Shown: one piece after another, positions 3,051 through 37,815 of the stretch | Numbering within the stretch: the stretch's first letter is position 1 | Layout: the number at the start of each line of letters is the position of its first letter | DNA from: Escherichia coli | GTDB lineage: Bacteria; Pseudomonadota; Gammaproteobacteria; Enterobacterales; Enterobacteriaceae | DNA length: 64,000 bases | Strand: one strand, 5' to 3' | NCBI RefSeq assembly: GCF_044647545.1 | Contig: NZ_CP172818.1 | Translations under genes and position numbers: made by a program | Notes under the pieces: model-generated | Seen by the model: the letters and a program-made list of their open reading frames with translations, nothing else | Databases searched by the model: none | Told to the model about the DNA's origin: nothing

Positions 3051-3089
3051 TGATACACTGACCGCCTGACGCACTAAGGAACAGCCAAA

Positions 3090-4154: not shown

Positions 4155-4163
4155 GGAGTGGTT

Positions 4164-4835
4164 ATGGATCTCGCGTCATTACGCGCTCAACAAATCGAAC
4201 TGGCTTCTTCTGTGATCCGCGAGGATCGACTCGATAAAGATCCACCGGATCTGATCGCCGGAGCCGATGTCGGATTTGAGCAGGGCGGAGAAGTGACGCG
4301 AGCGGCGATGGTGCTGCTGAAATACCCCTCGCTTGAGCTGGTGGAGTATAAAGTGGCCCGCATCGCCACCACCATGCCTTACATTCCAGGTTTTCTCTCC
4401 TTCCGCGAATATCCTGCGCTGCTGGCAGCGTGGGAGATGCTGTCACAAAAGCCGGATTTAGTGTTTGTCGATGGTCACGGGATCTCGCATCCTCGCCGTC
4501 TTGGTGTCGCCAGCCATTTTGGCTTATTGGTGGATGTGCCAACGATAGGCGTGGCGAAAAAACGGCTCTGCGGTAAATTCGAACCGCTCTCCAGCGAACC
4601 GGGCGCGCTGGCCCCACTGATGGATAAAGGCGAGCAGCTGGCCTGGGTCTGGCGCAGCAAAGCGCGCTGTAACCCATTGTTTATCGCTACCGGCCATCGG
4701 GTCAGCGTGGACAGCGCGCTGGCGTGGGTACAACGCTGCATGAAAGGCTATCGTCTGCCGGAGCCAACGCGCTGGGCGGACGCGGTGGCCTCGGAACGTC
4801 CGGCGTTCGTGCGCTATACAGCAAATCAGCCCTAA
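4164..4835 (+). CDS. nfi: Endonuclease V
   Basis: [29 protein letters not shown]...; ATG at 4164 is preceded by AGGAG. The track's GTG at 4158 is probably not the start. Confidence 0.9.
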
Positions 4836-4877
4836 TTCAGGTAAACTGCGGATAATTTCCGTATTTGAGAACTCAAC

Positions 4878-5468
4878 ATGTTACAAAACCCAATTCATCT
4901 GCGTCTGGAGCGCCTGGAAAGCTGGCAGCACGTCACTTTCATGGCTTGCTTATGCGAACGCATGTACCCCAATTACGCCATGTTCTGCCAGCAAACCGGT
5001 TTTGGTGATGGGCAGATTTACCGCCGCATTCTCGATCTCATCTGGGAAACGCTGACCGTCAAAGACGCAAAAGTAAATTTCGACAGCCAACTGGAGAAAT
5101 TTGAAGAAGCGATTCCTTCAGCCGACGATTTCGATCTGTACGGCGTTTATCCGGCAATCGATGCCTGCGTGGCGTTAAGTGAACTGGTCCATTCGCGTTT
5201 GAGTGGTGAAACGCTCGAACACGCGGTGGAAGTGAGTAAGACCTCCATCACGACCGTTGCGATGCTGGAAATGACTCAGGCTGGTCGCGAAATGAGCGAT
5301 GAAGAGCTCAAAGAAAACCCAGCTGTAGAGCAAGAATGGGACATTCAGTGGGAAATATTCCGACTTTTAGCTGAGTGCGAAGAACGCGATATCGAGCTGA
5401 TAAAAGGCCTTAGGGCAGACCTGCGTGAGGCGGGTGAGAGCAATATTGGTATAATTTTTCAGCAATAA
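4878..5468 (+). CDS. yjaG: DUF416-family protein YjaG
   Basis: 196-aa ORF; synteny between nfi and hupA. Confidence 0.85.
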   Translation: MLQNPIHLRLERLESWQHVTFMACLCERMYPNYAMFCQQTGFGDGQIYRRILDLIWETLTVKDAKVNFDSQLEKFEEAIPSADDFDLYGVYPAIDACVALSELVHSRLSGETLEHAVEVSKTSITTVAMLEMTQAGREMSDEELKENPAVEQEWDIQWEIFRLLAECEERDIELIKGLRADLREAGESNIGIIFQQ

Positions 5469-5654
5469 GACCAGAAAACGTGATTTAACGCCTGATTTGT
5501 CGTACCTGGAGTCTTCCCTTTCGCCCCCCGTCTGGTCTACATTTGGGGGGCGAAAAAAAGTGGCTATCGGTGCGTGTATGCAGGAGAGTGCTATTCTGGC
5601 ATTTCCGTCGCACTCGATGCTTAGCAAGCGATAAACACATTGTAAGGATAACTT

Positions 5655-5927
5655 ATGAACAAGACTCAACTGATTGATGTAATTGCAGAGAAAGCAGAAC
5701 TGTCCAAAACCCAGGCTAAAGCTGCTCTGGAGTCCACTCTGGCTGCAATTACTGAGTCTCTGAAAGAAGGCGATGCTGTACAACTGGTTGGTTTCGGTAC
5801 CTTCAAAGTGAACCACCGCGCTGAGCGTACTGGCCGCAACCCGCAGACCGGTAAAGAAATCAAAATTGCCGCAGCTAACGTACCGGCATTTGTTTCTGGC
5901 AAGGCACTGAAAGACGCAGTTAAGTAA
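5655..5927 (+). CDS. hupA: DNA-binding protein HU-alpha
   Basis: 90-aa [93 protein letters not shown]. Confidence 0.97.
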
Positions 5928-5939
5928 GATTGCGTGGCA

Positions 5940-6635
5940 GTGAACAGTTTTAACGAAGGGGTGGTTTCACCCCTTTTGTCTTTCTGGCGTCGATCATTGA
6001 TGCTGGCAGGCGCTCTGTTTCTCACTGCCTGTAGTCACAACTCTTCACTTCCTCCCTTTACCGCCAGTGGATTTGCTGAAGACCAGGGCGCGGTACGCAT
6101 CTGGCGAAAAGACAGCGGCGATAATGTGCATCTGCTTGCCGTGTTTAGCCCGTGGCGCAGTGGCGATACCACCACGCGAGAGTATCGCTGGCAGGGCGAT
6201 AACCTCACGCTCATCAATATCAATGTTTACAGCAAACCGCCGGTGAATATTCGCGCGCGTTTTGACGATCGCGGCGATCTGAGCTTTATGCAACGTGAAT
6301 CCGATGGGGAAAAGCAGCAGCTTTCTAACGACCAAATCGATTTATACCGTTATCGTGCTGATCAGATCCGCCAGATTAGCGATGCCTTACGTCAGGGGAG
6401 AGTCGTGCTGCGCCAGGGGCGCTGGCATGCGATGGAACAGACCGTGACCACCTGCGAAGGGCAAACCATTAAACCTGATTTAGATTCGCAGGCGATAGCG
6501 CATATCGAGCGCCGCCAGAGCCGCTCTTCTGTTGATGTCAGCGTGGCATGGCTGGAAGCGCCCGAAGGTTCGCAATTACTGTTGGTGGCAAACTCTGATT
6601 TCTGTCGCTGGCAACCCAACGAGAAAACGTTCTGA
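5940..6635 (+). CDS. yjaH: Putative lipoprotein YjaH (DUF1481 family)
   Basis: Open frame from GTG 5934/5940. The likely functional start is ATG 6000, which gives a lipoprotein signal peptide MLAGALFLTAC and lies downstream of the hupA terminator. Confidence 0.75.
   Translation: MNSFNEGVVSPLLSFWRRSLMLAGALFLTACSHNSSLPPFTASGFAEDQGAVRIWRKDSGDNVHLLAVFSPWRSGDTTTREYRWQGDNLTLININVYSKPPVNIRARFDDRGDLSFMQRESDGEKQQLSNDQIDLYRYRADQIRQISDALRQGRVVLRQGRWHAMEQTVTTCEGQTIKPDLDSQAIAHIERRQSRSSVDVSVAWLEAPEGSQLLLVANSDFCRWQPNEKTF
5955..5980 (+). terminator. Rho-independent terminator after hupA
   Basis: GGGGTGG-TTT-CACCCC hairpin followed by TTTTGTCTTTC. Confidence 0.6.
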
Positions 6636-6636
6636 T

Positions 6637-7062
6637 TTACCAGTGGCCCATACCCATATGACCGCCACCACCGCAGCCGCCGTAGCCCATGCCCATTCCG
6701 GCTCCGCGCGGAATACCCGCTTCAGCCATCGCAATATCTCGTTTCACCCGTAACTCATCTAACGACTGACGCAAATTCTCCATCTCTTTGGCGACCGCGT
6801 TAATTTTGCTGCTATCCGGTGGGTTCGCGGCTAACAGGGCATTGTATTCATAACGCTTCGTCACCAGTTGCTGTTGCAGTGCGCTGCTTTGAGCGTAAAA
6901 GTCATTATGGATTTTCTGCCACGCTGTCTGTTGTTCGCTGGTCAAAGGCGCGGCATTTTGCTGCCACATACCATGTCCGCCGTGAGCAAATGCCGATGTC
7001 GATCCCATCGCCATTGCTGAAAGCGCCATCATTACCAGGGCAATTTTCGTGTTCCGTTTCAT
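6637..7062 (-). CDS. zraP: Zinc-resistance-associated periplasmic protein ZraP
   Basis: 141-aa ORF MKRNTKIALVMMALSAMAMGSTSAFA..., with GGAGG before the ATG at 7062. Gly/Met/His-rich C-terminus. Confidence 0.9.
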   Translation of the reverse strand: MKRNTKIALVMMALSAMAMGSTSAFAHGGHGMWQQNAAPLTSEQQTAWQKIHNDFYAQSSALQQQLVTKRYEYNALLAANPPDSSKINAVAKEMENLRQSLDELRVKRDIAMAEAGIPRGAGMGMGYGGCGGGGHMGMGHW

Positions 7063-7097
7063 GGTTAATCCTCCAGTGGTTGTCTTACTTCGGGTAT

Positions 7098-7113
7098 TGC
7101 ATCTTCCGTGCCA
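7098..7113 (-). promoter_or_regulatory. Sigma-54 promoter of zraP
   Basis: Reverse complement reads TGGCAC-GGAAG-ATGCA, a near-consensus match to TGGCAC-N5-TTGCA, about 35 bp upstream of the zraP start. Confidence 0.7.
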
Positions 7114-7253
7114 ACGGCGAAACGCTGATATGACGGGTAATCTGGCATGATAAACGAGTAAAAATGACTCGCCTGCTGCGGGTAGCGAGTCATTTTTACT
7201 CATTGAAACTTAAGCCTTTGTGTTACAGCGCAGGGTAAGCGCTGATAAAAGAT

Positions 7254-7269
7254 GGCATGATTTCTGCCG
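7254..7269 (+). promoter_or_regulatory. Sigma-54 promoter of zraSR
   Basis: TGGCAT-GATTT-CTGCC about 30 bp upstream of the zraS start; divergent from the zraP promoter. Confidence 0.55.
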
Positions 7270-7299
7270 TCAGAAAGGGATGAGCAGGCAAAGAAGAAG

Positions 7300-8676
7300 A
7301 TGCGTTTTATGCAACGTTCTAAAGATTCCTTAGCTAAATGGTTAAGCGCGATCCTCCCCGTGGTCATTGTTGGGCTGGTGGGGCTGTTTGCGGTGACAGT
7401 GATTCGCGATTATGGGCGCGAGACTGCCGCCGCCAGACAAACGCTGCTGGAAAAAGGCAGTGTACTTATTCGCGCTCTTGAATCCGGCTCGCGCGTCGGT
7501 ATGGGGATGCGCATGCATCATGCGCAGCAGCAGGCCTTACTGGAAGAAATGGCCGGGCAGCCTGGAGTACGTTGGTTTGCGGTCACGGATGAACAAGGAA
7601 CAATCGTGATGCATAGCAACTCCGGCATGGTGGGAAAACAGCTTTATTCCCCGCAGGAAATGCAGCAGTTACATCCGGGAGATGAAGAAGCGTGGCGGCG
7701 GATCGATAGCGCAGACGGCGAGCCTGTTCTGGAAATTTATCGCCAGTTTCAACCGATGTTTGCTGCTGGAATGCACCGGATGCGCCATATGCAGCAATAT
7801 GCCGCGACACCACAAGCAATTTTCATTGCTTTCGACGCCAGTAACATTGTGAGTGCCGAAGATCGTGAGCAGAGAAATACCCTGATTATCCTCTTCGCCC
7901 TGGCGACGGTCTTGCTGGCAAGCGTGTTGTCATTCTTCTGGTATCGTCGCTATCTGCGCTCGCGCCAGTTGTTGCAGGATGAAATGAAGCGCAAAGAGAA
8001 GCTGGTGGCGCTGGGGCATCTTGCGGCAGGTGTTGCCCACGAAATCCGTAACCCACTTTCCTCGATTAAAGGACTGGCGAAATACTTTGCCGAACGCGCG
8101 CCAGCAGGGGGAGAAGCGCATCAACTGGCGCAGGTGATGGCGAAAGAAGCCGACCGTTTAAACCGCGTGGTAAGCGAGTTGCTGGAACTGGTTAAGCCAA
8201 CGCATCTGGCTTTGCAGGCGGTGGATCTCAACACGCTGATTAACCACTCATTACAGCTGGTAAGCCAGGATGCAAACAGCCGGGAGATCCAGTTACGCTT
8301 TACCGCCAACGACACATTACCGGAAATTCAGGCCGATCCGGACAGGCTGACTCAGGTCCTGTTGAATCTCTATCTCAATGCCATTCAGGCTATTGGTCAG
8401 CATGGCGTGATTAGCGTTGTGGCAAATGAAAGCGGAGCGGGCGTGAAAATCAGCGTTACCGACAGCGGTAAGGGAATTGCGGCAGATCAGCTTGAAGCCA
8501 TCTTCACCCCGTACTTCACCACCAAAGCCGAAGGTACCGGACTGGGGCTGGCGGTCGTGCATAATATTGTTGAACAACACGGTGGTACAATTCAGGTCGC
8601 AAGCCAGGAGGGAAAAGGCGCAACGTTCACCCTTTGGCTTCCGGTCAATATTACGCGTAAGGACCCACAAGGATGA
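7300..8676 (+). CDS. zraS: Sensor histidine kinase ZraS
   Basis: 458-aa ORF with N-terminal transmembrane segment, H-box (HEIRNPLSSIKG) and ATPase G-boxes. Confidence 0.9.
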   Translation: MRFMQRSKDSLAKWLSAILPVVIVGLVGLFAVTVIRDYGRETAAARQTLLEKGSVLIRALESGSRVGMGMRMHHAQQQALLEEMAGQPGVRWFAVTDEQGTIVMHSNSGMVGKQLYSPQEMQQLHPGDEEAWRRIDSADGEPVLEIYRQFQPMFAAGMHRMRHMQQYAATPQAIFIAFDASNIVSAEDREQRNTLIILFALATVLLASVLSFFWYRRYLRSRQLLQDEMKRKEKLVALGHLAAGVAHEIRNPLSSIKGLAKYFAERAPAGGEAHQLAQVMAKEADRLNRVVSELLELVKPTHLALQAVDLNTLINHSLQLVSQDANSREIQLRFTANDTLPEIQADPDRLTQVLLNLYLNAIQAIGQHGVISVVANESGAGVKISVTDSGKGIAADQLEAIFTPYFTTKAEGTGLGLAVVHNIVEQHGGTIQVASQEGKGATFTLWLPVNITRKDPQG

Positions 8677-9998
8677 CGCACGATAATATCGATATTCTGG
8701 TGGTGGATGATGACATTAGCCACTGCACTATTTTGCAGGCTTTGCTGCGCGGCTGGGGCTATAACGTGGCGCTTGCGAACAGCGGGCGACAGGCGCTGGA
8801 GCAGGTGCGGGAACAGGTTTTTGATCTTGTGCTTTGCGATGTGCGAATGGCAGAGATGGACGGCATCGCCACGCTCAAAGAGATCAAAGCGTTAAATCCG
8901 GCAATTCCGGTACTGATTATGACCGCGTACTCCAGCGTCGAGACGGCGGTAGAGGCGTTGAAAACCGGGGCGCTGGATTATCTCATCAAGCCGCTGGATT
9001 TCGATAACCTGCAGGCGACGCTGGAAAAGGCGCTCGCACATACGCACAGTGTTGACGCTGAAACGCCTGCGGTGTCTGCCAGCCAGTTCAGTATGGTCGG
9101 TAAAAGCCCGGCGATGCAACACCTGCTCAGTGAAATCGCCCTCGTCGCGCCATCGGAAGCCACGGTGCTGATCCACGGCGATTCCGGCACCGGTAAAGAG
9201 CTGGTCGCCAGGGCGATTCACGCCAGTAGCGCACGTAGCGAAAAACCGCTGGTAACGCTCAACTGCGCGGCGCTCAACGAATCCTTGCTGGAGTCTGAAT
9301 TGTTCGGTCACGAAAAAGGGGCGTTTACCGGGGCCGACAAACGCCGGGAAGGGCGCTTTGTTGAGGCGGACGGCGGCACGTTGTTTCTCGATGAAATTGG
9401 CGATATCTCGCCGATGATGCAGGTGCGTCTGCTACGTGCGATTCAGGAGCGCGAAGTTCAGCGTGTCGGTAGCAACCAGACTATTTCGGTTGATGTCCGG
9501 CTGATTGCGGCGACCCATCGCGATCTTGCCGCAGAGGTGAATGCCGGGCGTTTTCGCCAGGATCTCTACTATCGCCTGAACGTGGTGGCGATTGAAGTAC
9601 CATCGCTGCGTCAGCGGCGGGAAGATATTCCTCTGCTGGCAAACCATTTTCTTCAGCGCTTTGCCGAGCGTAATCGCAAGGCGGTAAAAGGTTTTACGCC
9701 CCAGGCGATGGATCTGCTGATTCACTACGACTGGCCGGGAAATATTCGTGAACTGGAAAACGCGGTGGAACGGGCGGTGGTGCTGCTGACCGGGGAATAT
9801 ATTTCCGAACGCGAGCTGCCGCTGGCGATTGCGAGTACGCCGATCCCGCTGGTACAAAGTCAGGATATTCAGCCGCTGGTGGAAGTCGAAAAAGAGGTGA
9901 TTCTTGCGGCACTGGAGAAAACGGGCGGCAACAAAACCGAAGCCGCCCGTCAGTTAGGGATCACGCGCAAAACGCTCTTGGCAAAACTGTCGCGTTAG
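8673..9998 (+). CDS. zraR: Sigma-54-dependent response regulator ZraR
   Basis: 441-aa ORF with receiver domain, AAA+ sigma-54 activator domain (GESGTGKE, GAFTGA) and C-terminal HTH. Start overlaps the zraS stop. Confidence 0.95.
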
Positions 9999-13501: not shown

Positions 13502-15043
<1,542 letters not shown>

Positions 15044-15128
15044 CCTTAAAGAAGCGTACTTTGAAGTGCTCACACAGATTGTCTGATAGAAAGTGAAAAG
15101 CAAGGCGTCTTGCGAAGCAGACTGATAC

Positions 15129-15204
15129 GTCCCCTTCGTCTAGAGGCCCAGGACACCGCCCTTTCACGGCGGTAACAGGGGTTCGAATCCCCTAGGGGAC
15201 GCCA
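15129..15204 (+). tRNA. gltV: tRNA-Glu (UUC) in the 16S-23S spacer
   Basis: GTCCCCTTCGTCTAGAGGCCCAGGACACCGCCCTTTCACGGCGGTAACAGGGGTTCGAATCCCCTAGGGGACGCCA. Confidence 0.95.
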
Positions 15205-15399
15205 CTTGCTGGTTTGTGAGTGAAAGTCACCTGCCTTAATATCTCAAAACTCATCTTCGGGTGACGTTTGAGATATTTGCTCTTTAAAAATCTGGATCAA
15301 GCTGAAAATTGAAACACTGAATAGTCGAAAGATTATTCGTGAGTCTCTCAAATTTTCGCAACACGATGATGAATCGAAAGAAACATCTTCGGGTTGTGA

Positions 15400-18303
<2,904 letters not shown>

Positions 18304-18515: not shown

Positions 18516-18602
18516 CAAATTTAGCAGAAGCCCTGCGCTGGCGCACGCTCCAGCTTCACCGCGCGATAGCACTCGATAGGCGGTCGCACTTACCAGGCCA
18601 GC

Positions 18603-20400: not shown

Positions 20401-22002
20401 ATGACTGAACAGGCAACAACAACCGATGAACTGGCTTTCATAAGGCCGTATGGCGAGCAGGAGAAGCAAATTCTTACTGCCGAAGCGGTAGAATTTCTGA
20501 CTGAGCTGGTGACGCATTTTACGCCACAACGCAATAAACTTCTGGCAGCGCGCATTCAGCAGCAGCAGGATATCGATAACGGAACGTTGCCTGATTTTAT
20601 TTCGGAAACAGCTTCCATTCGTGATGCTGACTGGAAAATTCGTGGTATTCCCGCGGACTTACAAGATCGTCGGGTAGAGATTACCGGCCCGGTTGAGCGC
20701 AAGATGGTGATCAACGCGCTCAACGCCAATGTGAAAGTCTTTATGGCCGATTTCGAAGATTCACTGGCCCCGGACTGGAACAAAGTGATCGATGGGCAAA
20801 TTAACCTGCGCGATGCGGTTAACGGCACCATCAGCTATAGCAATGAAGCAGGCAAAATTTATCAGCTCAAGCCCAATCCAGCGGTTTTGATTTGTCGGGT
20901 ACGCGGTCTGCACTTGCCGGAAAAACATGTCACCTGGCGTGGTGAGGCAATCCCCGGTAGCCTGTTTGATTTTGCGCTCTATTTCTTCCACAACTATCAG
21001 GCACTGTTGGCAAAGGGCAGCGGTCCCTATTTCTATCTGCCGAAAACCCAGTCCTGGCAGGAAGCGGCCTGGTGGAGCGAAGTCTTCAGCTATGCAGAAG
21101 ATCGCTTTAATCTGCCGCGCGGCACCATCAAGGCGACGTTGCTGATTGAAACGCTGCCCGCCGTGTTCCAGATGGATGAAATCCTTCACGCGCTGCGTGA
21201 CCATATTGTTGGTCTGAACTGCGGTCGTTGGGATTACATCTTCAGTTATATCAAAACGCTGAAAAACTATCCCGATCGCGTCCTGCCAGATAGACAGGCA
21301 GTGACGATGGATAAACCCTTCCTGAATGCTTACTCACGCCTGTTGATTAAAACCTGCCATAAACGCGGTGCTTTTGCGATGGGCGGTATGGCGGCATTTA
21401 TTCCGAGCAAAGATGAAGAGCGCAATAACCAGGTGCTCAACAAAGTAAAAGCGGATAAATCGCTGGAAGCTAATAACGGTCACGATGGCACATGGATTGC
21501 CCACCCAGGCCTTGCGGATACGGCAATGGCGGTATTCAACGACATTCTCGGCTCCCGTAAAAATCAGCTTGAAGTGATGCGCGAACAAGACGCGCCGATT
21601 ACTGCCGATCAGCTGCTGGCACCTTGTGATGGTGAACGCACCGAAGAAGGTATGCGCGCCAACATTCGCGTGGCTGTGCAGTACATCGAAGCGTGGATCT
21701 CTGGCAATGGCTGTGTGCCGATTTATGGCCTGATGGAAGATGCGGCGACGGCTGAAATTTCCCGTACCTCAATCTGGCAGTGGATCCATCATCAAAAAAC
21801 GTTGAGCAATGGCAAACCGGTGACTAAAGCCTTGTTCCGCCAGATGCTGGGCGAAGAGATGAAAGTCATTGCCAGCGAACTGGGCGAAGAACGTTTCTCC
21901 CAGGGGCGTTTTGACGATGCCGCACGCTTGATGGAACAGATCACCACTTCCGATGAGTTAATTGATTTCCTGACCCTGCCAGGCTACCGCCTGTTAGCGT
22001 AA
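20401..22002 (+). CDS. aceB: Malate synthase A
   Basis: [40 protein letters not shown]... (533 aa from the ATG at 20401). Confidence 0.95.
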
Positions 22003-22031
22003 ACCACCACATAACTATGGAGCATCTGCAC

Positions 22032-23336
22032 ATGAAAACCCGTACACAACAAATTGAAGAATTACAGAAAGAGTGGACTCAACCGCGTTGGGAAGGCATT
22101 ACTCGCCCGTACAGCGCGGAAGATGTGGTGAAATTACGCGGTTCAGTCAATCCTGAATGCACGCTGGCGCAACTGGGTGCGGCGAAAATGTGGCGTCTGC
22201 TGCACGGCGAGTCGAAAAAAGGCTACATCAACAGCCTCGGTGCACTGACTGGCGGTCAGGCGCTGCAACAGGCGAAAGCGGGTATTGAAGCAGTCTATCT
22301 GTCGGGATGGCAGGTAGCGGCGGACGCTAACCTGGCGGCCAGCATGTATCCGGATCAGTCGCTCTATCCGGCAAACTCGGTGCCAGCTGTGGTGGAGCGG
22401 ATCAACAACACCTTCCGCCGTGCGGATCAGATCCAATGGTCCGCAGGCATTGAGCCGGGCGATCCGCGCTATGTCGATTACTTCCTGCCGATCGTTGCCG
22501 ATGCGGAAGCCGGTTTTGGCGGTGTCCTGAATGCCTTTGAACTGATGAAAGCGATGATTGAAGCCGGTGCAGCGGCAGTTCACTTCGAAGATCAGCTGGC
22601 ATCAGTGAAGAAATGCGGTCACATGGGCGGCAAAGTTTTAGTGCCAACTCAGGAAGCTATTCAGAAACTGGTCGCGGCGCGTCTGGCAGCTGACGTGACG
22701 GGCGTTCCAACCCTGCTGGTTGCTCGTACCGATGCCGATGCGGCGGATCTGATTACCTCCGATTGCGACCCATATGACAGCGAATTTATTACCGGCGAGC
22801 GTACCAGCGAAGGCTTCTTCCGTACTCATGCAGGTATTGAACAAGCGATCAGCCGTGGCCTGGCGTATGCGCCATATGCTGACCTGGTATGGTGTGAAAC
22901 CTCCACGCCGGATCTGGAACTGGCGCGTCGCTTTGCACAAGCCATCCACGCGAAATATCCGGGCAAACTGCTGGCTTATAACTGCTCGCCGTCGTTCAAC
23001 TGGCAGAAAAACCTCGACGACAAAACTATTGCCAGCTTCCAGCAGCAGCTGTCGGATATGGGCTACAAGTTCCAGTTCATCACCCTGGCAGGCATCCACA
23101 GCATGTGGTTTAACATGTTCGATCTGGCAAACGCCTATGCCCAGGGCGAAGGTATGAAGCACTACGTTGAGAAAGTGCAGCAGCCGGAATTTGCCGCCGC
23201 GAAAGATGGCTATACCTTCGTATCTCACCAGCAGGAAGTGGGTACAGGTTACTTCGATAAAGTGACGACCATTATTCAGGGCGGCACGTCTTCAGTCACC
23301 GCGCTGACCGGCTCCACTGAAGAATCGCAGTTCTAA
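22032..23336 (+). CDS. aceA: Isocitrate lyase
   Basis: [41 protein letters not shown]... (434 aa). Confidence 0.95.
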
Positions 23337-23359
23337 GCAACCTACAAACGTTGCTGACT

Positions 23360-23397
23360 GTAGGCCACGGATAAGGCATTTACGCCGCATCCGGCAA
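23360..23397. repeat. REP (repetitive extragenic palindromic) element between aceA and aceK
   Basis: GTAGGCCACGGATAAGGCATTTACGCCGCATCCGGCA. Confidence 0.8.
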
Positions 23398-23423
23398 TTC
23401 TCTGCTCCTGATGAGGGCGCTAA

Positions 23424-25968
<2,545 letters not shown>

Positions 25969-26167
25969 GACAGTCTCCTTTTTCTGTATCGTGGAAATCA
26001 TTTTCATTTTTATTGTTAGCTAATGCAATAGTTGCTGAACTGATCCGATGAGTTAATGTTGAACAAATCTCATGTTGCGTGGTGGTCGCTTTTACCACAG
26101 ATGCGTTTATGCCAGTATGGTTTGTTGAATTTTTATTAAATCTGGGTTGAGCGTGTCGGGAGCAAGT

Positions 26168-29851
<3,684 letters not shown>

Positions 29852-29883
29852 TTCACAAATCTGTCACTTTTCCTTACAACAAA

Positions 29884-29915
29884 CAGGGCGCTCAATGAGT
29901 GCCCTGTCTCTTTAT
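29884..29915 (+). terminator. Rho-independent terminator after metH
   Basis: CAGGGC-GCTCAATGAGT-GCCCTG hairpin followed by TCTCTTTATT. Confidence 0.65.
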
Positions 29916-30070
29916 TAATATGAAACACTTATACTGGAAACAGGCTGGAATAATCTTAGCCGGAAAAACGAATGTCAAAAGGCACAGTAAAGATGCCAGT
30001 CAGCGTGTTTCCGGTCCTTTGGTCATTCAATTGCTTCAGGAACATATAACGATAAGGAGAACCTGAACTC

Positions 30071-31702
30071 GTGTTAACGCTGCTTCACCTGCTTTCTGCC
30101 GTCGCCCTGCTGGTCTGGGGGACTCATATTGTTCGAACCGGCGTAATGCGCGTCTTCGGCGCGCGTCTGCGTACTGTTCTTAGCCGAAGCGTCGAAAAGA
30201 AGCCGCTCGCCTTTTGCGCGGGGATAGGCGTTACCGCACTGGTGCAGAGCAGTAATGCCACCACCATGCTGGTGACCTCGTTTGTCGCTCAGGATCTGGT
30301 AGCCCTCGCACCGGCTCTGGTGATTGTGCTGGGTGCAGATGTCGGGACGGCGCTAATGGCGCGTATTCTCACCTTCGACTTATCCTGGCTGTCACCGTTA
30401 CTTATTTTTATCGGCGTGATTTTTTTCCTCGGACGCAAACAGTCACGCGCCGGGCAACTGGGCCGCGTCGGTATTGGTCTTGGGCTGATTTTGCTGGCGC
30501 TGGAGTTGATTGTGCAGGCCGTAACGCCGATCACCCAGGCAAACGGCGTTCAGGTGATCTTTGCCTCGCTGACCGGCGATATTCTGCTGGATGCGCTGAT
30601 TGGCGCGATGTTCGCCATTATCAGCTACTCCAGCCTTGCTGCTGTACTGCTGACCGCGACTCTGACCGCCGCAGGCATTATCTCCTTCCCCGTGGCGCTC
30701 TGTCTGGTGATTGGTGCTAACCTCGGTTCCGGTCTGCTGGCGATGCTCAACAACAGTGCCGCCAATGCCGCAGCCCGCCGTGTCGCGCTGGGTAGCCTGC
30801 TGTTTAAGCTGGTGGGTAGCCTGATTATCCTGCCGTTTGTTCATTTGCTGGCAGAGACAATGGGGAAGTTGCCATTGCCAAAAGCGGAACTGGTGATCTA
30901 TTTCCACGTCTTCTACAACCTTGTACGCTGCCTGGTCATGTTGCCATTCGTTGACCCGATGGCACGGTTTTGCAAAACGATTATTCGCGATGAACCGGAA
31001 CTGGATACCCAGCTACGGCCTAAACATCTGGATGTCAGCGCGCTGGATACGCCCACGCTTGCTCTGGCGAACGCTGCCCGCGAAACCCTGCGCATTGGCG
31101 ACGCCATGGAACAGATGATGGAAGGGTTGAATAAAGTGATGCACGGCGAGCCACGGCAGGAGAAAGAGCTGCGTAAGCTGGCTGATGATATCAACGTTCT
31201 CTATACCGCCATTAAGCTGTATCTGGCGCGGATGCCAAAAGAAGAGCTGGCGGAGGAAGAGTCGCGCCGCTGGGCGGAGATCATCGAAATGTCGCTCAAC
31301 CTTGAACAGGCCTCCGATATCGTCGAGCGCATGGGGAGCGAAATTGCCGATAAATCGCTGGCAGCACGGCGGGCATTTTCGCTTGATGGCTTGAAGGAAC
31401 TGGATGCGCTCTATGAGCAATTGCTCAGTAATTTAAAACTGGCAATGTCGGTTTTCTTCTCTGGCGATGTTACCAGCGCCCGTCGTTTGCGCCGCAGCAA
31501 GCATCGCTTTCGCATTCTTAATCGCCGTTATTCCCATGCTCACGTCGATCGCCTGCATCAGCAAAACGTGCAAAGCATTGAAACCAGTTCGCTACATTTA
31601 GGCTTACTGGGAGATATGCAGCGTCTGAACTCGCTGTTTTGTTCGGTGGCTTACAGTGTGCTGGAACAGCCGGATGAAGACGAAGGACGGGACGAGTATT
31701 AA
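30071..31702 (+). CDS. yjbB: Na+/phosphate cotransporter-family membrane protein YjbB
   Basis: 543-aa ORF, hydrophobic N-terminal half with a PhoU-like C-terminal domain; synteny. Confidence 0.88.
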   Translation: MLTLLHLLSAVALLVWGTHIVRTGVMRVFGARLRTVLSRSVEKKPLAFCAGIGVTALVQSSNATTMLVTSFVAQDLVALAPALVIVLGADVGTALMARILTFDLSWLSPLLIFIGVIFFLGRKQSRAGQLGRVGIGLGLILLALELIVQAVTPITQANGVQVIFASLTGDILLDALIGAMFAIISYSSLAAVLLTATLTAAGIISFPVALCLVIGANLGSGLLAMLNNSAANAAARRVALGSLLFKLVGSLIILPFVHLLAETMGKLPLPKAELVIYFHVFYNLVRCLVMLPFVDPMARFCKTIIRDEPELDTQLRPKHLDVSALDTPTLALANAARETLRIGDAMEQMMEGLNKVMHGEPRQEKELRKLADDINVLYTAIKLYLARMPKEELAEEESRRWAEIIEMSLNLEQASDIVERMGSEIADKSLAARRAFSLDGLKELDALYEQLLSNLKLAMSVFFSGDVTSARRLRRSKHRFRILNRRYSHAHVDRLHQQNVQSIETSSLHLGLLGDMQRLNSLFCSVAYSVLEQPDEDEGRDEY

Positions 31703-31711
31703 TACCGTGAC

Positions 31712-31785
31712 CCTGTAGGCCTGATAAGACGCGTAAAGCGTCGCATCAGGCACGATGAACAAGATGCCGGATCATGCATCCGGCA
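31712..31785. repeat. REP elements between yjbB and pepE
   Basis: CTGTAGGCCTGATAAGACGCGTAAAGCGTCGCATCAGGCA and GCCGGATCATGCATCCGGC palindromes. Confidence 0.75.
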
Positions 31786-31791
31786 ATTCAT

Positions 31792-32481
31792 TTAAAAACG
31801 GTGACCCGCTTCCAGCGGCACCGCTTCTTCACCAGCCTTAAACACATAAGTGGTGTTCGGGCCACCCAGCGTAGCGTGACCTTTACTCACCGTGATCCAG
31901 TTACCTTCCGGTAGACCAATAATTGTGAGTTCTGGCGCGACGACCAGCAGTTCGCGAATACGCTGCTCACGCGTTTCACCTTTATGGCCTTCCGGCAGCG
32001 CGTTGGTGAAGTGCGGGTTGATTTGCAACGGGAACAGATTCAGCGCATCGAAACCTTGCGGATCGACAATCGGCATATCGTTGGTGGTACGAATGGTTGG
32101 GCAAGCAAGGTTAGCGCCTGCGCTCCAGCCAATATACAGCGCGCCACGTTTCACCACGTCAGTAATTGGTGGCAGCAGCCCGCGCTCGCGGCACTGTTTC
32201 AGCAACTGGAAAGTATTACCGCCGCCGACAATCACGATCTCAGCATTTTCAATCGCGGCAACGGGATCGACAACGCTATGAATACCGGTGACAGAAACAC
32301 CCAGCGGAGCGAGAACCGCAGCCGTTTTCGCTGTGTAATCATCCCAGGTCTGCGTTACGCCAGCGAAAGGAATAAATACCGCTGAACGGCGACCCTGCAA
32401 CTGTTCAGCAATCAGCGGCAGCGCGTGTTCCAGCCAGGCTTTACCCGGCAGCGTCGAGTTACTCAATAAAAGCAGTTCCAT
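31792..32481 (-). CDS. pepE: Dipeptidase E (alpha-aspartyl dipeptidase)
   Basis: 229-aa [45 protein letters not shown]... Confidence 0.95.
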
Positions 32482-32609
32482 TACTTCTCCGGTTAGTAAG
32501 AAATCACGGGAGCCATGCTACCACTGTGATTTTAACCGCTTACTGACATGGCTCACGATGTTGCGCATTGCTTCTGGAAAGGATTTCCAGACGCAGGTCA
32601 CGAATTTCC

Positions 32610-35600
32610 ATAAAACCAGACTGTTTTTTCATAAACACTCATTTACGATGACCCCCATCTCCCGAAAATCAGACAAACCACCATTACCGATAATCCCTAA
32701 ACAAACACGAAAATCACCATACCGTTAATTTTTTTTTACAACGTACCATCACACTCAAACCACCCACAATCCACAAACTCGAAATGTCTTACTCATATAT
32801 CACCACCCAGCGTTTGTAAACCATAACCAGTTGACGATTCCATTTTCACCATACCCCATTACAAACACCCAAACGAGCCCTCGTCATTTTTCACAAATTA
32901 CCCCATATCGCTACGATATTCACCCCTTTACGAAACCCATTCACCCATACCATTTCATTTCAACGTACTGCATTGAAAATAAAAAAACACACCATATTCC
33001 AAATCCAAATCGCCACCCGTAACCCACGTTCCCCAACCATGACCCAACACCTCCAACGGTCCCATCAGCGACTTTATCCGTTAATTACCGTCATCAATTT
33101 CCCGCGTTCTCGCGCCTCTTCCATCGCATACGCCGATGACCCCACATACCCGTGTATTAAAACACCAGTTCCCTACCCCAACCTGATCCTCTTTTAATTA
33201 AATCGTTTGATCGATCATTCGTACAAAAACCCACCCGTGAATACTTCAAATTAAAGATGCCTTTCATACGCAAAACATGCTCACCAACCTCTTAATTTTT
33301 CTCTGTTCCATGATCTCCGTTAATCATCAATTCAACGTGATATTTCTGATGTTTCACTTTACCCACTGTGATTTAACTGATGTAACACCATGATCACGCA
33401 CGCCACCGAACCCACAGACTAACAGTACCACCTCAGAAACCGAGAAAAAGAAAGCATCAAATATTTCACCCCATCATCGAACACCATCGTAACCGACCAC
33501 CACGATAAAACCCCACAATCTCATCCAGGGTCACAAATCGAATCGCTCACATATTTTTATCATACCGCTACGAACAGCGAACAATCATCCGAACCAACGC
33601 CAATCTCACCCAACGCGAACATGCAGAATACAATCGAAACGTGTTCTTCCGCTGCTTTATCCGCCGCGTGCTGAAACTACGTGATTACCAAACACCGTCA
33701 CACCTCCTCCCACCAACAACGCGATCGATTCCTCGATGCTTTCTACCAACGATAACCAAATCGGAGATTATGCCGATCAGAATCCAAATCCCCCGCCGAG
33801 TTCATCCACCAACTATCAATTCCACGTACCACCACATAATTCGTTTTTAAATCACCAAATTAAACCAATCACCTACACAATTAACGACGATGATCTGAAA
33901 TTCATCCACACTCCCATTCCGCAATACAAAAAAAAAATATACAATAATTTTATACTTATTTCCATGATTTTCACCTTTTAATTCTCATCCCTCCTTTAAA
34001 CATATGTACACACGCTATTATTTAATTTGATTAATGTTCGTTTATTTTTCGATAATATTGATTAGATCTACCTACGAGCGTAAACCATATACCCAAGATT
34101 ATTTAATCATGAAACGTTAATAACTCATCTAATGAAATCTTTTTAACTGTTTCTTACCAAGTCACCATACCCCAATATTCATACCTATTTTTACCCCTCG
34201 AACCATTCTAACATCTTTCGATGAAAAGATAAAAAAGTTTCGTCCTATATTCGGGTTTGATAATCCGCGACGGCTTTTTCATATTACCACGTTAACCTTC
34301 ATTCCCGTCGCACCTACGCAATAATGTCCGGCGAATTCATCGTTATAAATTCGTCATTGCAGATAATAATGCGTTCGTTACCACTTTAACCAACGGTATA
34401 CCTCCGTGATCACGTCATCAATCCACGTAATGTTCATCAAAATCCTCCTCCGCTGTTCCACCTGTCTCCAACGACGCAGATTTCTTTCGATTTCTCCGTT
34501 CACAGAAATCCATCAATATTCATGCTTCCTGTTATCAACCATTCACCCACGCAGAGAAAGCCGCTGATTACCCCAACGAGATTCGCATCCAACATCGCTC
34601 CCATTCCACGGGCTCCGCACTGTAAACCACCAATCACCATCATCTTGATTTAATCTTACGTACTTTTCCACTTTCTACGATGTCTCCCGTTCTCGCCGCA
34701 CAAATTCAACCCTCGACCTCATCCGTATATCTAACTGATTCCACATCCAACTAATTTCCATCGCAAAAAATGCATTACCATAAAACCTGATCGTTTTTCC
34801 GCCCGCAATGTTATTTACTCCGTATAACCCGTTCAACACAGATAACAAACAAAATCACCATTCTCTAATCTTCCCCCCCAAAAATCGTTTTTTATACCTT
34901 CACGCACTGCTCGACGTGATATTCCGTCCACCCACCTTCTTCATATTCCCGTCCATCCTGTTTTTTCCAGAATCCCCCGCGATACCGACCACACGATACC
35001 GTCTTACCCATTCTTTCGACCAGACGATGAAGCTATTACGCACTTTATCGCGTACACTCTCCTTCTACCTTCCACCGACTTTCTAGAAACATTCACAATC
35101 ACCATGTGTTGTTCTACGTACCGTCCCCACCCTCGACATCAGAAAAAGTTTTTTATATACCATTTTTTCGAATCACTTCGTTATTCATACTCCCCACCTT
35201 TCTCATCACCACAACCGAAATTACCCGTTATTACCAACTCGATCACAAAATGATAATTTCTCTATATATTTACCTCTTCGCTTAGATTTCCCAAAATGAT
35301 ACCTTTACGATTCATATTTCCACCCACTAATATCACATCTTACATCCTTTCTAATAATTCACCACAACCAACCAATCCGACCATACAATAATATTTTACC
35401 AAATTTAAATTTCATAAACAATATTTTAGATAATAGACCCGTAATTTTTATATAAACATCGAAATTTTTATTCATAAATTCACTTTTATAAAAATTAATA
35501 TATTTTCCACCATGCAAACAATCTTATTTTTCTTCACCACAAGCCAAATGGAATATCTTTTTAATTTATTCATTCGATAAGATGTTTTTTCTCATATTCG

Positions 35601-36305
35601 TTTCAACCACCGTAATATCAAAAAACCGAGCAAATACGCCAGCAACCCGGGCATTCATCTCACTCTCTTCACCACCATAAAACCATCCATACCCTCCGAA
35701 TCCTACCAATTCCCACCACGACATCCAATTACCCATACAAATTTTTAAACCTAACTCATATCCCAACGAATTAATTTATCCACAACCGGAAAATCCCGAA
35801 TCGATTCCCCTTTCAACTCCCCTGTATTAATTTTTACATAACGCTTTCGATTTACCACGTCCGCCAATAATACCAGATTAACTCCCGATTCCCCCCCGCA
35901 ATTTTCAACATCCTCACCCCCCAGGAAAAACCAACAAACCCATCCACAACGACCACATCCCCTTAACCCCACACCCATTATCTCTTCATCCTCATCATTT
36001 CCCGACACACACAACTCTTTCAGCCAAACTTTTCTTCATCCCCACCAAGATTTTCTTATCATATACGATACAATTCCTCGACCCCTTTTAACAACTACGG
36101 TAAAACCACCCCGATCCCCTCATACCCAAAATCAACCACAATCAAACAATCTCACTTTTTCCATCCCTCTTTCCACATGCAAAACCTTTCCACCACGAAA
36201 ACACAGACTTTCAAACGATTTTTCACTCAAGAAAACGCTTTCTCCACATTTTTTCCAACACACACACACATTCAATATTGATTATCTTATTGCCACAAAA
36301 TTATC
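32610..36305. other. Anomalous ~3.7 kb G-depleted, ORF-free segment of unknown origin between pepE and rluF
   Basis: Hand counts on the top strand give G about 8–10% inside the segment against about 22% in the flanks, with A and C elevated. The longest ORF in any frame is 92 codons. No recognisable gene, RNA, repeat array or mobility function. Boundaries are placed by where the G content shifts. Confidence 0.8.
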
Positions 36306-36422
36306 TATTTCCGGATACTTCTGTGATAAAAGCGGGCAGATCACATTAATTTCACGTTGCCTCATAACCCTTTTTTATCAACCCAAGAGGTACGGTATAT
36401 TCCGCGTTTTACAGGAGAATTT

Positions 36423-37358
36423 ATGCTGCCCGACTCATCAGTCCGTTTAAATAAATACATCAGCGAAAGCGGAATTTGCTCACGCCGCGAAGCGGATCGC
36501 TATATCGAGCAAGGCAATGTGTTCCTTAATGGCAAGCGAGCCACCATTGGCGATCAGGTGAAACCCGGCGACGTTGTGAAAGTAAACGGTCAGTTGATTG
36601 AGCCTCGGGAAGCCGAAGATTTGGTACTTATCGCCCTGAACAAGCCCGTCGGTATTGTCAGCACCACCGAAGATGGCGAGCGCGATAACATTGTCGATTT
36701 CGTTAACCACAGCAAACGCGTGTTCCCGATTGGCCGCCTGGATAAAGATTCCCAGGGGCTGATTTTCCTCACCAATCACGGCGATCTGGTGAATAAGATC
36801 CTCCGTGCGGGTAACGATCATGAGAAAGAGTATCTGGTGACGGTTGATAAACCGATTACCGATGAATTTATTCGTGGTATGGGGGCGGGAGTACCGATCC
36901 TCGGGACGGTAACTAAAAAGTGCAAAGTCAAAAAAGAAGCACCGTTTGTCTTCCGCATTACCCTGGTGCAGGGGCTGAACCGTCAGATTCGTCGCATGTG
37001 CGAGCACTTTGGTTACGAAGTGAAAAAGCTGGAACGTACGCGCATTATGAACGTCAGCTTAAGCGGCATTCCGCTGGGTGAGTGGCGCGATTTAACCGAC
37101 GATGAGTTAATCGATCTCTTTAAGCTCATTGAAAATTCCTCTTCCGAGGCAAAACCTAAAGCGAAGGCCAAACCGAAAACGGTAGGCATCAAACGTCCAG
37201 TCGTTAAGATGGAAAAAACGGTGGAAAAAGGCGGTCGCCCGGCGTCCAACGGTAAGCGTTTTACCTCGCCGGGGCGTAAAAAGAAGGGGGATCAGCGCCT
37301 GCCGCGCGTCGACGTATTTGCTGACCAGCTAAATGACGCCTCAGGATCCGGTTTATAA
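36423..37358 (+). CDS. rluF: 23S rRNA pseudouridine synthase RluF
   Basis: [49 protein letters not shown]..., with S4 domain, pseudouridine synthase core and Lys/Ala-rich C-terminal tail. Confidence 0.9.
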
Positions 37359-37564: not shown

Positions 37565-37815
37565 GATGGTGCCCTCAGTGAGCCAGAGAGTTCAGTGTAC
37601 GGGAATTCGTTTGCGAGCAGAACTGATAATATTCATTTTGCCTTCTCTTAACTATTTATCTCTTTCGATAATTAGCGATAAATACAGATAAAAATTTAAC
37701 GCAAATTATTATCCGATAAAGACGCTGGTTAACAGAGTACAGGCTCGTTTATTGATGAGCATAGTGACAAGAAAATCAATACGGCCCGAAATATAGCTTC
37801 CAGGCCATACAGTAT

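What the first reader, a model, noticed from the sequence alone, without database searches (positions are those of the whole stretch)
32610..36305. A ~3.7 kb strand-asymmetric, G-depleted, ORF-free segment inserted between pepE and rluF
Seen in sequence: from about 32610 to 36305 the top strand drops to roughly 8–10% G (hand counts on several 60-nt lines), while A and C are each about 30–45% and T is variable. The flanking pepE and rluF sequence has about 22–25% G. The shift is abrupt on both sides, within about 30 bp. The longest ORF in any frame is 92 codons; in a G-poor sequence TAA is nearly the only stop on the top strand, so ORFs of 60–90 codons are expected by chance. I could not recognise any protein, rRNA, tRNA, riboswitch, IS end, integrase, CRISPR repeat or REP element inside. 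From established knowledge, the K-12 pepE–rluF intergenic region is only a few hundred bp, so this is a net gain of about 3.7 kb placed between two divergent promoters. Inference: a natural E. coli island would normally carry genes and balanced composition, so the options are (a) an assembly, basecalling, engineered or synthetic artefact; (b) foreign non-coding DNA from a source with extreme strand skew; (c) a functional non-coding element. If transcribed left to right the RNA would be C-rich, G-poor and unstructured, which is the classic signature of Rho-loading (rut) sequence; if transcribed right to left it would be G-rich and prone to R-loops. I cannot tell these apart from sequence alone.
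Basis: partly seen in the sequence, partly recalled or inferred. Interest (0 to 1): 0.9.

Follow-up and report, generated by a model that had tools for sequence, protein, structure and literature searches.

The report
Corrupted copy of the sorbose operon
The "G-poor, gene-free insert" is the ordinary E. coli L-sorbose sugar-uptake operon with about 70% of the G's on one strand (plus some T's and C's) dropped, almost certainly when the sequence record was computed rather than in a living cell.

Summary
In detail: window 32607-36354 has 9% G against 27% elsewhere, with sharp edges and no ORF over 92 codons. It is not unknown DNA. It is the L-sorbose (sor) PTS operon that about half of complete E. 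coli genomes carry between pepE and rluF. Against the intact locus of a near-identical ST648-type genome, the segment is a pure subsequence: 70% of G, 12% of T, 10% of C and 1% of A are missing. There are almost no insertions or substitutions, and all long A/T runs are intact. About 800 separate small deletions leave a median of 3 nt between gaps, so all six genes are destroyed. The flanks show no substitutions over 36.8 kb. No known mutational process does this. Every other oddity checked in the window is a tiny, mostly deletion-only scar lying on a breakpoint where K-12-type genomes differ structurally from ST648-type genomes. The sor junctions mix bases of both types. Neither the degraded DNA nor the three read-through proteins that the scars create occur in any public collection searched. 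Verdict: a reconstruction or processing artefact, not a biological feature. Why G is hit hardest remains unexplained. Low interest.

The parts
31792..32481 (-). pepE, intact (left neighbour)
   Evidence: 229-aa ORF; identical to FDAARGOS_497 pepE, no substitutions in 22000-32580
32577..32606 (-). Left junction: a short stretch resembling the 5' end of sorE, with G's still present. It mixes sor+ (ST648-type) and sor-less (K-12-type) bases. About 2 kb of the natural island (shikimate-DH-like gene and most of sorE) is missing immediately to its left.
   Evidence: Alignments; the junction allele is found in none of 5426 genomes; large-gap map
32607..32668 (-). First codons of sorE and the sorE-sorM spacer, thinned
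32669..33311 (-). Remnant of sorM (PTS IID): 643 of 825 nt kept, G 215 -> 55
   Evidence: tblastn best 38 bits vs 548 on the reference
33320..33965 (-). Remnant of sorA (PTS IIC): 646 of 798 nt kept, G 209 -> 73
34022..34437 (-). Remnant of sorB (PTS IIB): 416 of 495 nt kept
34437..34781 (-). Remnant of sorF (PTS IIA): 345 of 408 nt kept
34789..35415 (-). Remnant of sorD (SDR oxidoreductase): 627 of 807 nt kept; also strong C loss in its 5' half
35468..36164 (-). Remnant of sorC (regulator): 697 of 948 nt kept, G 210 -> 42; strong T loss in its 5' part
36165..36354 (.). sorC-rluF spacer, thinned; the last clear extra deletions are at about 36345-36354
36355..36423 (+). Right junction and rluF upstream region. 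36362-36390 carries K-12/sor-less-type bases (TTTTTTATCAACCC) that cannot be derived from the ST648 allele by deletion.
   Evidence: allele found in none of 5426 genomes
36424..37358 (+). rluF, identical to the ST648 allele except for 4 nt lost at its stop codon (about 37288), so the ORF reads on 62 nt
   Evidence: allele absent from 5426 genomes; read-through protein not on record

Best explanation
The segment is not a biological element. It is the resident L-sorbose operon (sorM-sorA-sorB-sorF-sorD-sorC on the minus strand, plus the first codons of sorE) of an ST648-type E. coli. Individual bases were dropped from it when the sequence record was computed. What is shown: the segment is a subsequence of the intact operon, and the changes are almost all deletions and base-specific (G 70%, T 12%, C 10%, A 1%). 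The affected stretch coincides with DNA that sor-less (K-12-type) genomes lack. All the other small anomalies I could check against K-12 lie on K-12-versus-ST648 structural breakpoints. What is inferred: the record was produced by reconciling an ST648-type genome with a K-12-like, island-free structure. This could have been a reference-guided consensus, polishing of a mixed or contaminated sample, or later in-silico processing. Sequence with no counterpart in that structure was either dropped outright (2 kb of the island, the 33-kb prophage) or kept column by column only where support passed a threshold, with G columns failing most often. Which step made G the weakest base is unknown.
For: (1) Identity: megablast hits the sor island in 2865 of 5426 complete genomes, with 3429 query nt aligned to 4306 subject nt. 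Annotation of the locus is, and the operon's distribution and function in ST648 are described in PMC12817954. (2) Subsequence: with G removed from both sequences, 3342 of 3378 aligned positions match and there are 6 window-only bases. With cheap gaps, 3710 of 3748 window bases align with 0 mismatches. (3) Rates: G 70.1%, T 12.0%, C 10.0% and A 1.1% deleted. There are 788 deletion blocks, 594 of them single bases and the longest 8 nt. The median intact stretch is 3 nt. (4) Not read noise: all 22 A/T runs of 5 nt or more are intact and there are almost no insertions. (5) Not random: G retention depends on context (CGA 0.76, CGT 0.69, AGC 0.05, AGT 0; chi-square p=9e-29) and drifts regionally. 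(6) No evolutionary time: 0 substitutions in window 22000-32580 and 37815-64000 against FDAARGOS_497. (7) Seven other oddities in the window. The six that could be checked against K-12 (near 23366, 25117, 37288, 41340, 45914, 46453) lie within about 25 nt of a K-12-versus-ST648 structural breakpoint; five are deletion-only scars and one is a 2-nt insertion. The seventh, after the 5S rRNA, was not checked. Three of them remove stop codons. (8) The junction and scar alleles occur in none of 5426 genomes. The degraded DNA is absent from GTDB representatives, PLSDB and JGI metagenomes. The three read-through proteins are absent from 153 billion gene positions. The natural RluF allele is indexed in 5565 blocks, and every place read has the full-length island. 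(9) The right junction contains K-12-type bases.
Against: No reads, assembly metadata or source accession are available, so the artefact is inferred and not observed. I cannot name a pipeline step that drops G far more than C on one strand; a two-strand read set should treat G and C alike. It is odd that one part of the island (sdhL-sorE) and the prophage vanish completely while sorM-sorC is only thinned. The small scars can all be derived from the ST648 sequence by deletion alone, so only the sor junctions directly show K-12-type bases. Absence from public collections is also what one would expect of a genuine private strain.
Confidence: 0.9

Rival explanations
1. Real DNA. The sor operon of this strain was replaced by a copy made by a polymerase or reverse transcriptase that skipped template bases on one strand. 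For example, the heterologous island could have sat as a single-stranded loop in a recombination heteroduplex between an ST648-type donor and a sor-less recipient, or a cDNA of the sor mRNA could have been made with template C's skipped.
For: The changes are strand-specific and confined to DNA that a sor-less partner lacks. The other scars also sit at heterology breakpoints. The pattern is context-dependent and not uniform.
Against: About 800 separate, precise small deletions with almost no substitutions match no known bypass or RT error spectrum. By established knowledge, abasic-site or lesion bypass in E. coli gives mainly substitutions. T and C are also lost, in regional bursts. Three essential-looking stop codons are lost elsewhere in the window. 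There are no substitutions in the flanks. The sequence is seen nowhere else.
Confidence: 0.03
2. A naturally decayed pseudo-operon: ordinary mutational erosion of an unused sor operon.
For: The sor operon is lost or disrupted in some lineages. Phylogroups A and B1 mostly lack it (PMC12817954), and one public genome has it fragmented with an IS1 (L009).
Against: Natural decay is dominated by substitutions and a few larger indels. Here there are about 1080 deleted bases against at most about 36 substitutions and 6 insertions, strongly biased to one base on one strand. The flanking 36.8 kb has no substitutions against a clinical ST648-type genome.
Confidence: 0.01
3. A functional non-coding element: a long C-rich, G-poor Rho-loading (rut) tract, or an R-loop-prone tract on the other strand, placed between the pepE and rluF promoters.
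For: C/G = 3.4 over 3.7 kb; no ORFs.
Against: The composition is fully explained by base dropping from a coding operon. There is no conservation, since the sequence is unique. There is no Rfam family and no excess of promoter-like sites. pepE is transcribed away from the segment and the rluF promoter lies downstream of it.
Confidence: 0.01
4. Foreign non-coding DNA from a source with extreme strand skew, or an engineered/synthetic cassette (for example a G-less cassette) physically inserted at this site.
For: Abrupt compositional edges.
Against: 99% of the bases are, in order, those of the native sor operon at its native site. There are no vector, IS, integrase or att features. By established knowledge G-less cassettes are a few hundred bp and G-free, whereas this segment keeps 30% of its G's.
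Confidence: 0.02
5. A raw, unpolished noisy long read (nanopore or PacBio) patched into an otherwise polished assembly.
For: The errors are nearly all deletions and the edges are sharp, as for a patch.
Against: All 22 homopolymers of 5 nt or more are exact, insertions are about 0.2-1% and mismatches 1% or less. Raw long reads show homopolymer errors, insertions and substitutions of every base type (established knowledge). This is a sub-variant of the artefact explanation, not a rival to 'not real'.
Confidence: 0.03

Closest known systems
L-sorbose PTS operon island (sorC-sorD-sorF-sorB-sorA-sorM-sorE, with the ST648-specific shikimate-dehydrogenase-like gene) between pepE and rluF of E. coli
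   Same: Same chromosomal site, same gene order and orientation. 99% of the retained bases are identical, in order, to the FDAARGOS_497 locus. The operon's distribution and function are described in PMC12817954.
   Different: About 22% of the bases are missing (70% of plus-strand G). No reading frame survives, and proteins score 38 bits or less against 276-651. The sdhL-like gene and nearly all of sorE are absent.
Reference-guided or mixed-haplotype consensus artefacts at structural differences (scars at breakpoints, dropped or mangled insertions)
   Same: Every anomaly checked against K-12 lies at a K-12-versus-ST648 structural breakpoint. Large lineage-specific insertions are missing. Junctions mix alleles of both types. 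The affected alleles are unique to this record.
   Different: I know of no documented case of a strand- and base-specific thinning of a 4.8-kb insertion, and the mechanism for G preference is unexplained (note).
Rho utilisation (rut) regions: C-rich, G-poor unstructured RNA
   Same: C/G ratio of 3.4 on the plus strand.
   Different: By established knowledge rut sites are tens to about a hundred nt and lie in transcripts. Here the tract is 3.7 kb, unique, derived by base dropping, and has no evidence of plus-strand transcription.
Strand-specific targeted hypermutation (deaminase-based editing such as APOBEC or T7-deaminase fusions, and DGR adenine mutagenesis)
   Same: One strand and one base are preferentially affected within a bounded region.
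   Different: By established knowledge those processes give substitutions (C>T, A>N). Here G>A is 4 events against 803 G deletions.

Membership tests
E. coli sor (L-sorbose PTS) operon island | Located between pepE and rluF with order sorE-sorM-sorA-sorB-sorF-sorD-sorC on the strand opposite to rluF | tested here: met
   Colinear DNA alignment to L001 3001-7790; remnants of each gene mapped in order
E. coli sor (L-sorbose PTS) operon island | Intact open reading frames encoding SorM/A/B/F/D/C/E | tested here: not met
   Longest ORF is 92 aa. tblastn gives 38 bits or less in shifting frames, against 276-847 bits on the reference. The median intact stretch is 3 nt.
E. coli sor (L-sorbose PTS) operon island | Complete island including sorE (and, in ST648, the sdhL-like gene) | tested here: not met
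   L001 positions about 967-2972 are absent from the window. All places read for the same RluF allele have them.
Rho-loading (rut) tract | C-rich, G-poor composition of the transcribed strand | tested here: met
   C 31%, G 9%, C/G 3.4
Rho-loading (rut) tract | Lies within a transcript of that strand and causes Rho-dependent termination | not testable with these tools
   No expression data. Promoter-like sites are not enriched, and neighbouring promoters point away or lie downstream.
Rho-loading (rut) tract | Sequence present and conserved in related genomes | tested here: not met
   Unique to this window among 5426 E. coli genomes, PLSDB, GTDB representatives and JGI metagenomes
Mobile element / integrative island | Terminal repeats, transposase or integrase, tRNA or att target | tested here: not met
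   No significant direct or inverted terminal repeats, no tRNA, no ORF over 92 aa
Structured non-coding RNA | Match to a curated covariance model | tested here: not met
   0 Rfam matches at E<=1 in 32000-37000
Natural pseudogene decay | Substitutions at least as common as indels, both strands and all bases affected, flanks diverged to a comparable degree | tested here: not met
   About 1080 deleted bases against 36 or fewer substitutions; G 70% vs A 1%; flanks show 0 substitutions
Raw long-read patch | Homopolymer length errors, insertions and mismatches of all types | tested here: not met
   22 of 22 long A/T runs are exact, 6 window-only non-G bases, 0 mismatches with cheap gaps
Structure-guided reconstruction artefact | Anomalies confined to structural differences from a template genome type, with chimeric junctions | tested here: met
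   Six small patches plus both sor junctions lie at K-12-vs-ST648 breakpoints. A seventh patch, after the 5S rRNA, was not checked against K-12. K-12-type bases are present at 36362-36390.
Structure-guided reconstruction artefact | Reads from the isolate disagree with the record at the locus | not testable with these tools
   No reads or source accession available

The most novel reading that the evidence does not exclude
The thinned operon is real DNA. In this reading a previously unknown copying process skips template bases (mostly one base, on one strand), acting on DNA that was single-stranded or heterologous during recombination between an ST648-type and a sor-less E. coli. It would also have left small deletion scars at every other heterology breakpoint.
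Probability: 0.02. Interest if true: 0.9.

Novelty: not a real feature. Interest (0 to 1): 0.07.

Why it matters
The value is quality control, not biology. Taken at face value, the segment would be reported as a 3.7-kb non-coding island of extreme skew, a giant Rho-loading tract or exotic foreign DNA. In fact it hides a well-known operon that is fitness-relevant in ST648. The same record also carries silent scars that remove the stop codons of aceK, rluF and psiE and delete an rrn terminator, which would create false gene fusions in annotation and in pangenome or variant analyses. The case also gives a practical recipe. Align an anomalous segment to the same locus in the nearest relatives and ask whether it is a subsequence, then ask whether all anomalies coincide with structural differences from some template genome.

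Tried and rejected
(1) G>A or C>T hypermutation (deaminase- or bisulfite-like): rejected, 4 G>A against 803 G deletions. (2) Uniform random deletion of G: rejected, strong context dependence and regional drift. (3) Non-G deletions as collateral of neighbouring G's: rejected, the rate is the same with 0, 1 or 2 G neighbours. (4) Homopolymer-compression sequencing error: rejected, long A/T runs are exact and isolated T's are lost more often than T's in runs. (5) A codon-aware process: only a weak phase effect (0.27/0.24/0.365). (6) A generally poor assembly: rejected, the flanks are clean. (7) Small flank patches as natural alleles: rejected for the aceK-iclR and rluF patches, which are absent from 5426 genomes. 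(8) Per-column plurality consensus over many genomes: considered because about 50% carry the island, and rejected because it would hit polymorphic third positions and A as much as G, and the flanks are purely ST648-type. (9) Forced alignment to a different island at this locus: rejected as circular, because that island would itself have to be G-poor. (10) Finding the source record: exact DNA scans of GTDB representatives and JGI metagenomes, PLSDB, and exact-protein look-ups of the three read-through products all came back empty. (11) The C-poor stretch at 54.6-55.7 kb seen is an ordinary AT-rich SopA-family gene identical to the reference.
Full report

Window 32610-36305 is A 31.4%, C 31.1%, G 9.0%, T 28.5%. 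In 200-nt windows G averages 0.092 inside and 0.270 (sd 0.042) outside. GC skew sits between -0.4 and -0.8 across the whole stretch and near zero on both sides. The left edge is sharp, with G's present up to 32600 and missing from 32607. The longest ORF inside is 92 codons. There is no Rfam match at E<=1, no tRNA and no terminal repeats. Promoter- and terminator-like sites are at shuffle level. Island-free strains have a 211-nt pepE-rluF spacer.

2. What it is.

Megablast of the segment against 5426 complete E. coli genomes hits 2865 of them, all on chromosomes. The best hits are at 78.8% identity, with 3429 query bases aligned to 4306 subject bases. The target is the L-sorbose PTS operon island between pepE and rluF. 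It comprises a shikimate-dehydrogenase-like gene, sorE, IID (sorM), IIC (sorA), IIB (sorB), IIA (sorF), an SDR oxidoreductase (sorD) and the SorC regulator, all on the minus strand. PMC12817954 describes this seven-gene operon as present in more than 86% of genomes outside phylogroups A and B1. It reports strong induction and function in ST648, with the shikimate-dehydrogenase-like gene as an ST648-specific neighbour. The window's flanks are ST648-type. Against FDAARGOS_497 (NZ_CP033850.1) there are no substitutions in window 22000-32580 or 37815-64000. There are nine in the first 22 kb, eight of them inside the rRNA operon. That genome's locus (L001) is therefore a good proxy for the undamaged sequence.

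3. Nature of the difference.

The segment is a subsequence of the intact operon.
- With G stripped from both sequences, 3342 of 3378 aligned positions match. There are 36 mismatches, 6 window-only bases and 255 missing non-G bases (T 127, C 116, A 12).
- With cheap gaps, 3710 of 3748 window bases align to L001 3001-7790 (4790 nt) with no mismatch.
- Loss per base is G 70.1%, T 12.0%, C 10.0%, A 1.1%.
- The deletions come in 788 blocks: 594 single bases, 127 doublets, and a longest block of 8 nt.
- Intact stretches have a median of 3 nt and a maximum of 30 nt.
- Each sor gene keeps 74-85% of its length. The proteins score at most 38 bits by tblastn, in shifting frames, against 276-651 bits on the reference.
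- About 2 kb of the island (L001 about 967-2972: the shikimate-DH-like gene and nearly all of sorE) is absent altogether. The break lies 30 nt left of where G loss begins.

4. Character of the process.

It is not deamination-like: G>A occurs 4 times against 803 G deletions. It is not uniform. G is kept in CGA (0.76) and CGT (0.69) but almost never in AGC (0.05) or AGT (0.00) (chi-square p=9e-29). G runs are lost or kept as a unit. C loss rises to 53% around the sorD-sorC spacer and T loss to 68% in the 5' part of sorC, while G loss stays at 40-89% throughout. It is not raw-read noise. All 22 A or T runs of 5 nt or more are exact, isolated T's are lost more often than T's in runs, and insertions are nearly absent. 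Codon phase has only a weak effect. So an accurate sequence was thinned base by base, with a strong preference for G.

5. Why this is not biology.

More than a thousand bases were removed in about 800 separate events on one strand. There are at most 36 substitutions, inside a genome whose flanks show no substitutions against a clinical relative. That pattern fits no known mutational, repair or reverse-transcription spectrum (established knowledge) and leaves no time for ordinary decay. The degraded version occurs nowhere else: not in 5426 complete E. coli genomes, PLSDB, GTDB representative genomes or JGI metagenome contigs.

6. Context that points to a reconstruction artefact.

The rest of the window is clean except for seven small patches:
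- +2 nt at 23366
- -21 nt near 25117 (aceK stop lost)
- a changed stretch after the 5S rRNA at 18520-18596 (terminator hairpin absent)
- -4 nt at about 37288 (rluF stop lost)
- -1 nt at about 41340 (just after the pgi stop)
- -5 nt at about 45914
- -2 nt at about 46453 (psiE stop lost)

The aceK-iclR and rluF patches exist in none of the 5426 genomes. The three read-through proteins they create are absent from 153 billion public gene positions. The natural RluF allele, by contrast, is indexed in 5565 blocks. Every place read has the full-length sor island upstream, intact in three places and fragmented with an IS1 in one, and a slipin/prophage island downstream.

Comparison with a K-12-type genome (ER1709) shows that each of the six patches I could check lies within about 25 nt of a point where K-12-type genomes carry extra DNA relative to ST648:
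- a second REP copy between aceA and aceK
- the 2.2-kb arpA/espL4 gene between aceK and iclR
- a 132-nt element between rluF and yjbD
- about 140 nt after pgi
- about 56 nt upstream of psiE
- xylE after psiE

The thinned sor stretch is exactly the DNA that sor-less genomes lack. It is bounded on both sides by short remnants homologous to the sor-less spacer. The right junction carries K-12/sor-less-type bases (TTTTTTATCAACCC) that cannot be obtained from the ST648 allele by deletion, and the left junction is also mixed. Neither junction allele exists in any complete genome. The window also lacks the 33-kb prophage region that FDAARGOS_497 has between yjbD and lysC.

The simplest reading is inference, not demonstration. 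An ST648-type genome was reconciled with a K-12-like, island-free structure, through reference-guided consensus, polishing of a mixed sample, or later processing. Material without a counterpart in that structure was dropped or kept only column by column.

7. What remains unexplained.

I cannot say why G is the weakest base, why only one strand is affected, or why one part of the island is removed completely and the rest only thinned (note). I rejected several specific mechanisms: plurality consensus over many genomes, forced alignment to another island, a raw long-read patch, and file corruption. The loss order A < C ~ T << G resembles the number of dye signals per base in two-channel Illumina chemistry. 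That is only a recollection, and it would need reads from one strand only. I did not test it.

8. Comparison with known things and verdict.

By position, order and sequence the segment is the sor operon, but it fails the operon's defining feature of intact genes. It shares only its composition with Rho-loading tracts and fails on conservation. It fails every test for a mobile element, a structured RNA, natural pseudogene decay and a raw-read patch. It meets the testable criteria for a structure-guided reconstruction artefact. Novelty class: not a real feature. Interest: low (0.07).

The most novel reading not excluded is that the DNA is real and reflects an unknown template-base-skipping copying process acting on heterologous single-stranded DNA during recombination. 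I give this about 2%. Reads or a PCR across pepE-rluF would settle it.

Noticed in passing
window 25110-25190 (aceK 3' end / iclR 3' end): 21 nt are missing relative to all ST648-type genomes. The aceK stop codon is lost and the ORF (23424-25190, 588 aa) reads antisense into the iclR 3' end. The allele is found in none of 5426 genomes, and the protein is not on record publicly. The patch sits where K-12-type genomes carry the 2.2-kb arpA/espL4 gene.
   Followed up: yes
window 37280-37358 (rluF stop / yjbD stop): 4 nt (C, TTA) are missing, so the rluF TAA is lost and the ORF runs on 62 nt. The allele is unique. It sits where K-12-type genomes have a 132-nt element.
   Followed up: yes
window 46445-46488 (psiE stop): 2 nt are missing, so the psiE stop is lost (145-aa ORF instead of 136). 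It sits where K-12 has xylE between psiE and malG, which ST648-type genomes lack.
   Followed up: yes
window ~41340 and ~45914: One T is missing right after the pgi stop, and 5 nt are missing in the spacer upstream of psiE. Both are at points where K-12-type genomes have extra REP-like DNA.
   Followed up: yes
window 23366-23367: An extra 'CA' inside the REP element between aceA and aceK, next to the point where K-12 has a second REP copy. This is the only insertion-type anomaly.
   Followed up: partly
window 18520-18596 (downstream of 5S rRNA): The sequence differs from FDAARGOS_497, and the rrn terminator hairpin (GGCCCAGTCGGAAGACTGGGCTTTTTT) is absent. This could be rrn-copy variation or another scar. 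It was not compared with K-12.
   Followed up: partly
window 37716-37814 (yjbD-lysC spacer): There is no slipin/P2-like prophage island here, unlike FDAARGOS_497 and every place read for the same RluF allele. The spacer is identical to K-12 over about 90 nt.
   Followed up: partly
window 32482-32577 vs L001 967-2972: The ST648-specific shikimate-dehydrogenase-like gene and nearly all of sorE (about 2 kb) are absent entirely rather than thinned. No complete genome shares this junction.
   Followed up: yes
window 14157-16808 (rRNA operon): Four G-run length differences (G6 or G4 in the window against G5 or G3 in FDAARGOS_497) and a short variable 16S patch at 14498-14520. These are probably rrn-copy variation or errors in the reference and not in the window.
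   Followed up: no
window 54629-56209: An AT-rich, C-poor 526-aa ORF (SopA-family / yjbI-like) between malM and ubiC. It was flagged by the composition scan but is identical to the ST648 reference and ordinary.
   Followed up: yes
L009 (GCA_030995285.1, CP121673.1) 2366-9653: A public complete genome with the same RluF allele has its sor operon and neighbouring genes split into many short calls, plus an IS1 in sorD. This looks like a frameshift-rich assembly and is a reminder that this locus is not always cleanly assembled.
   Followed up: no
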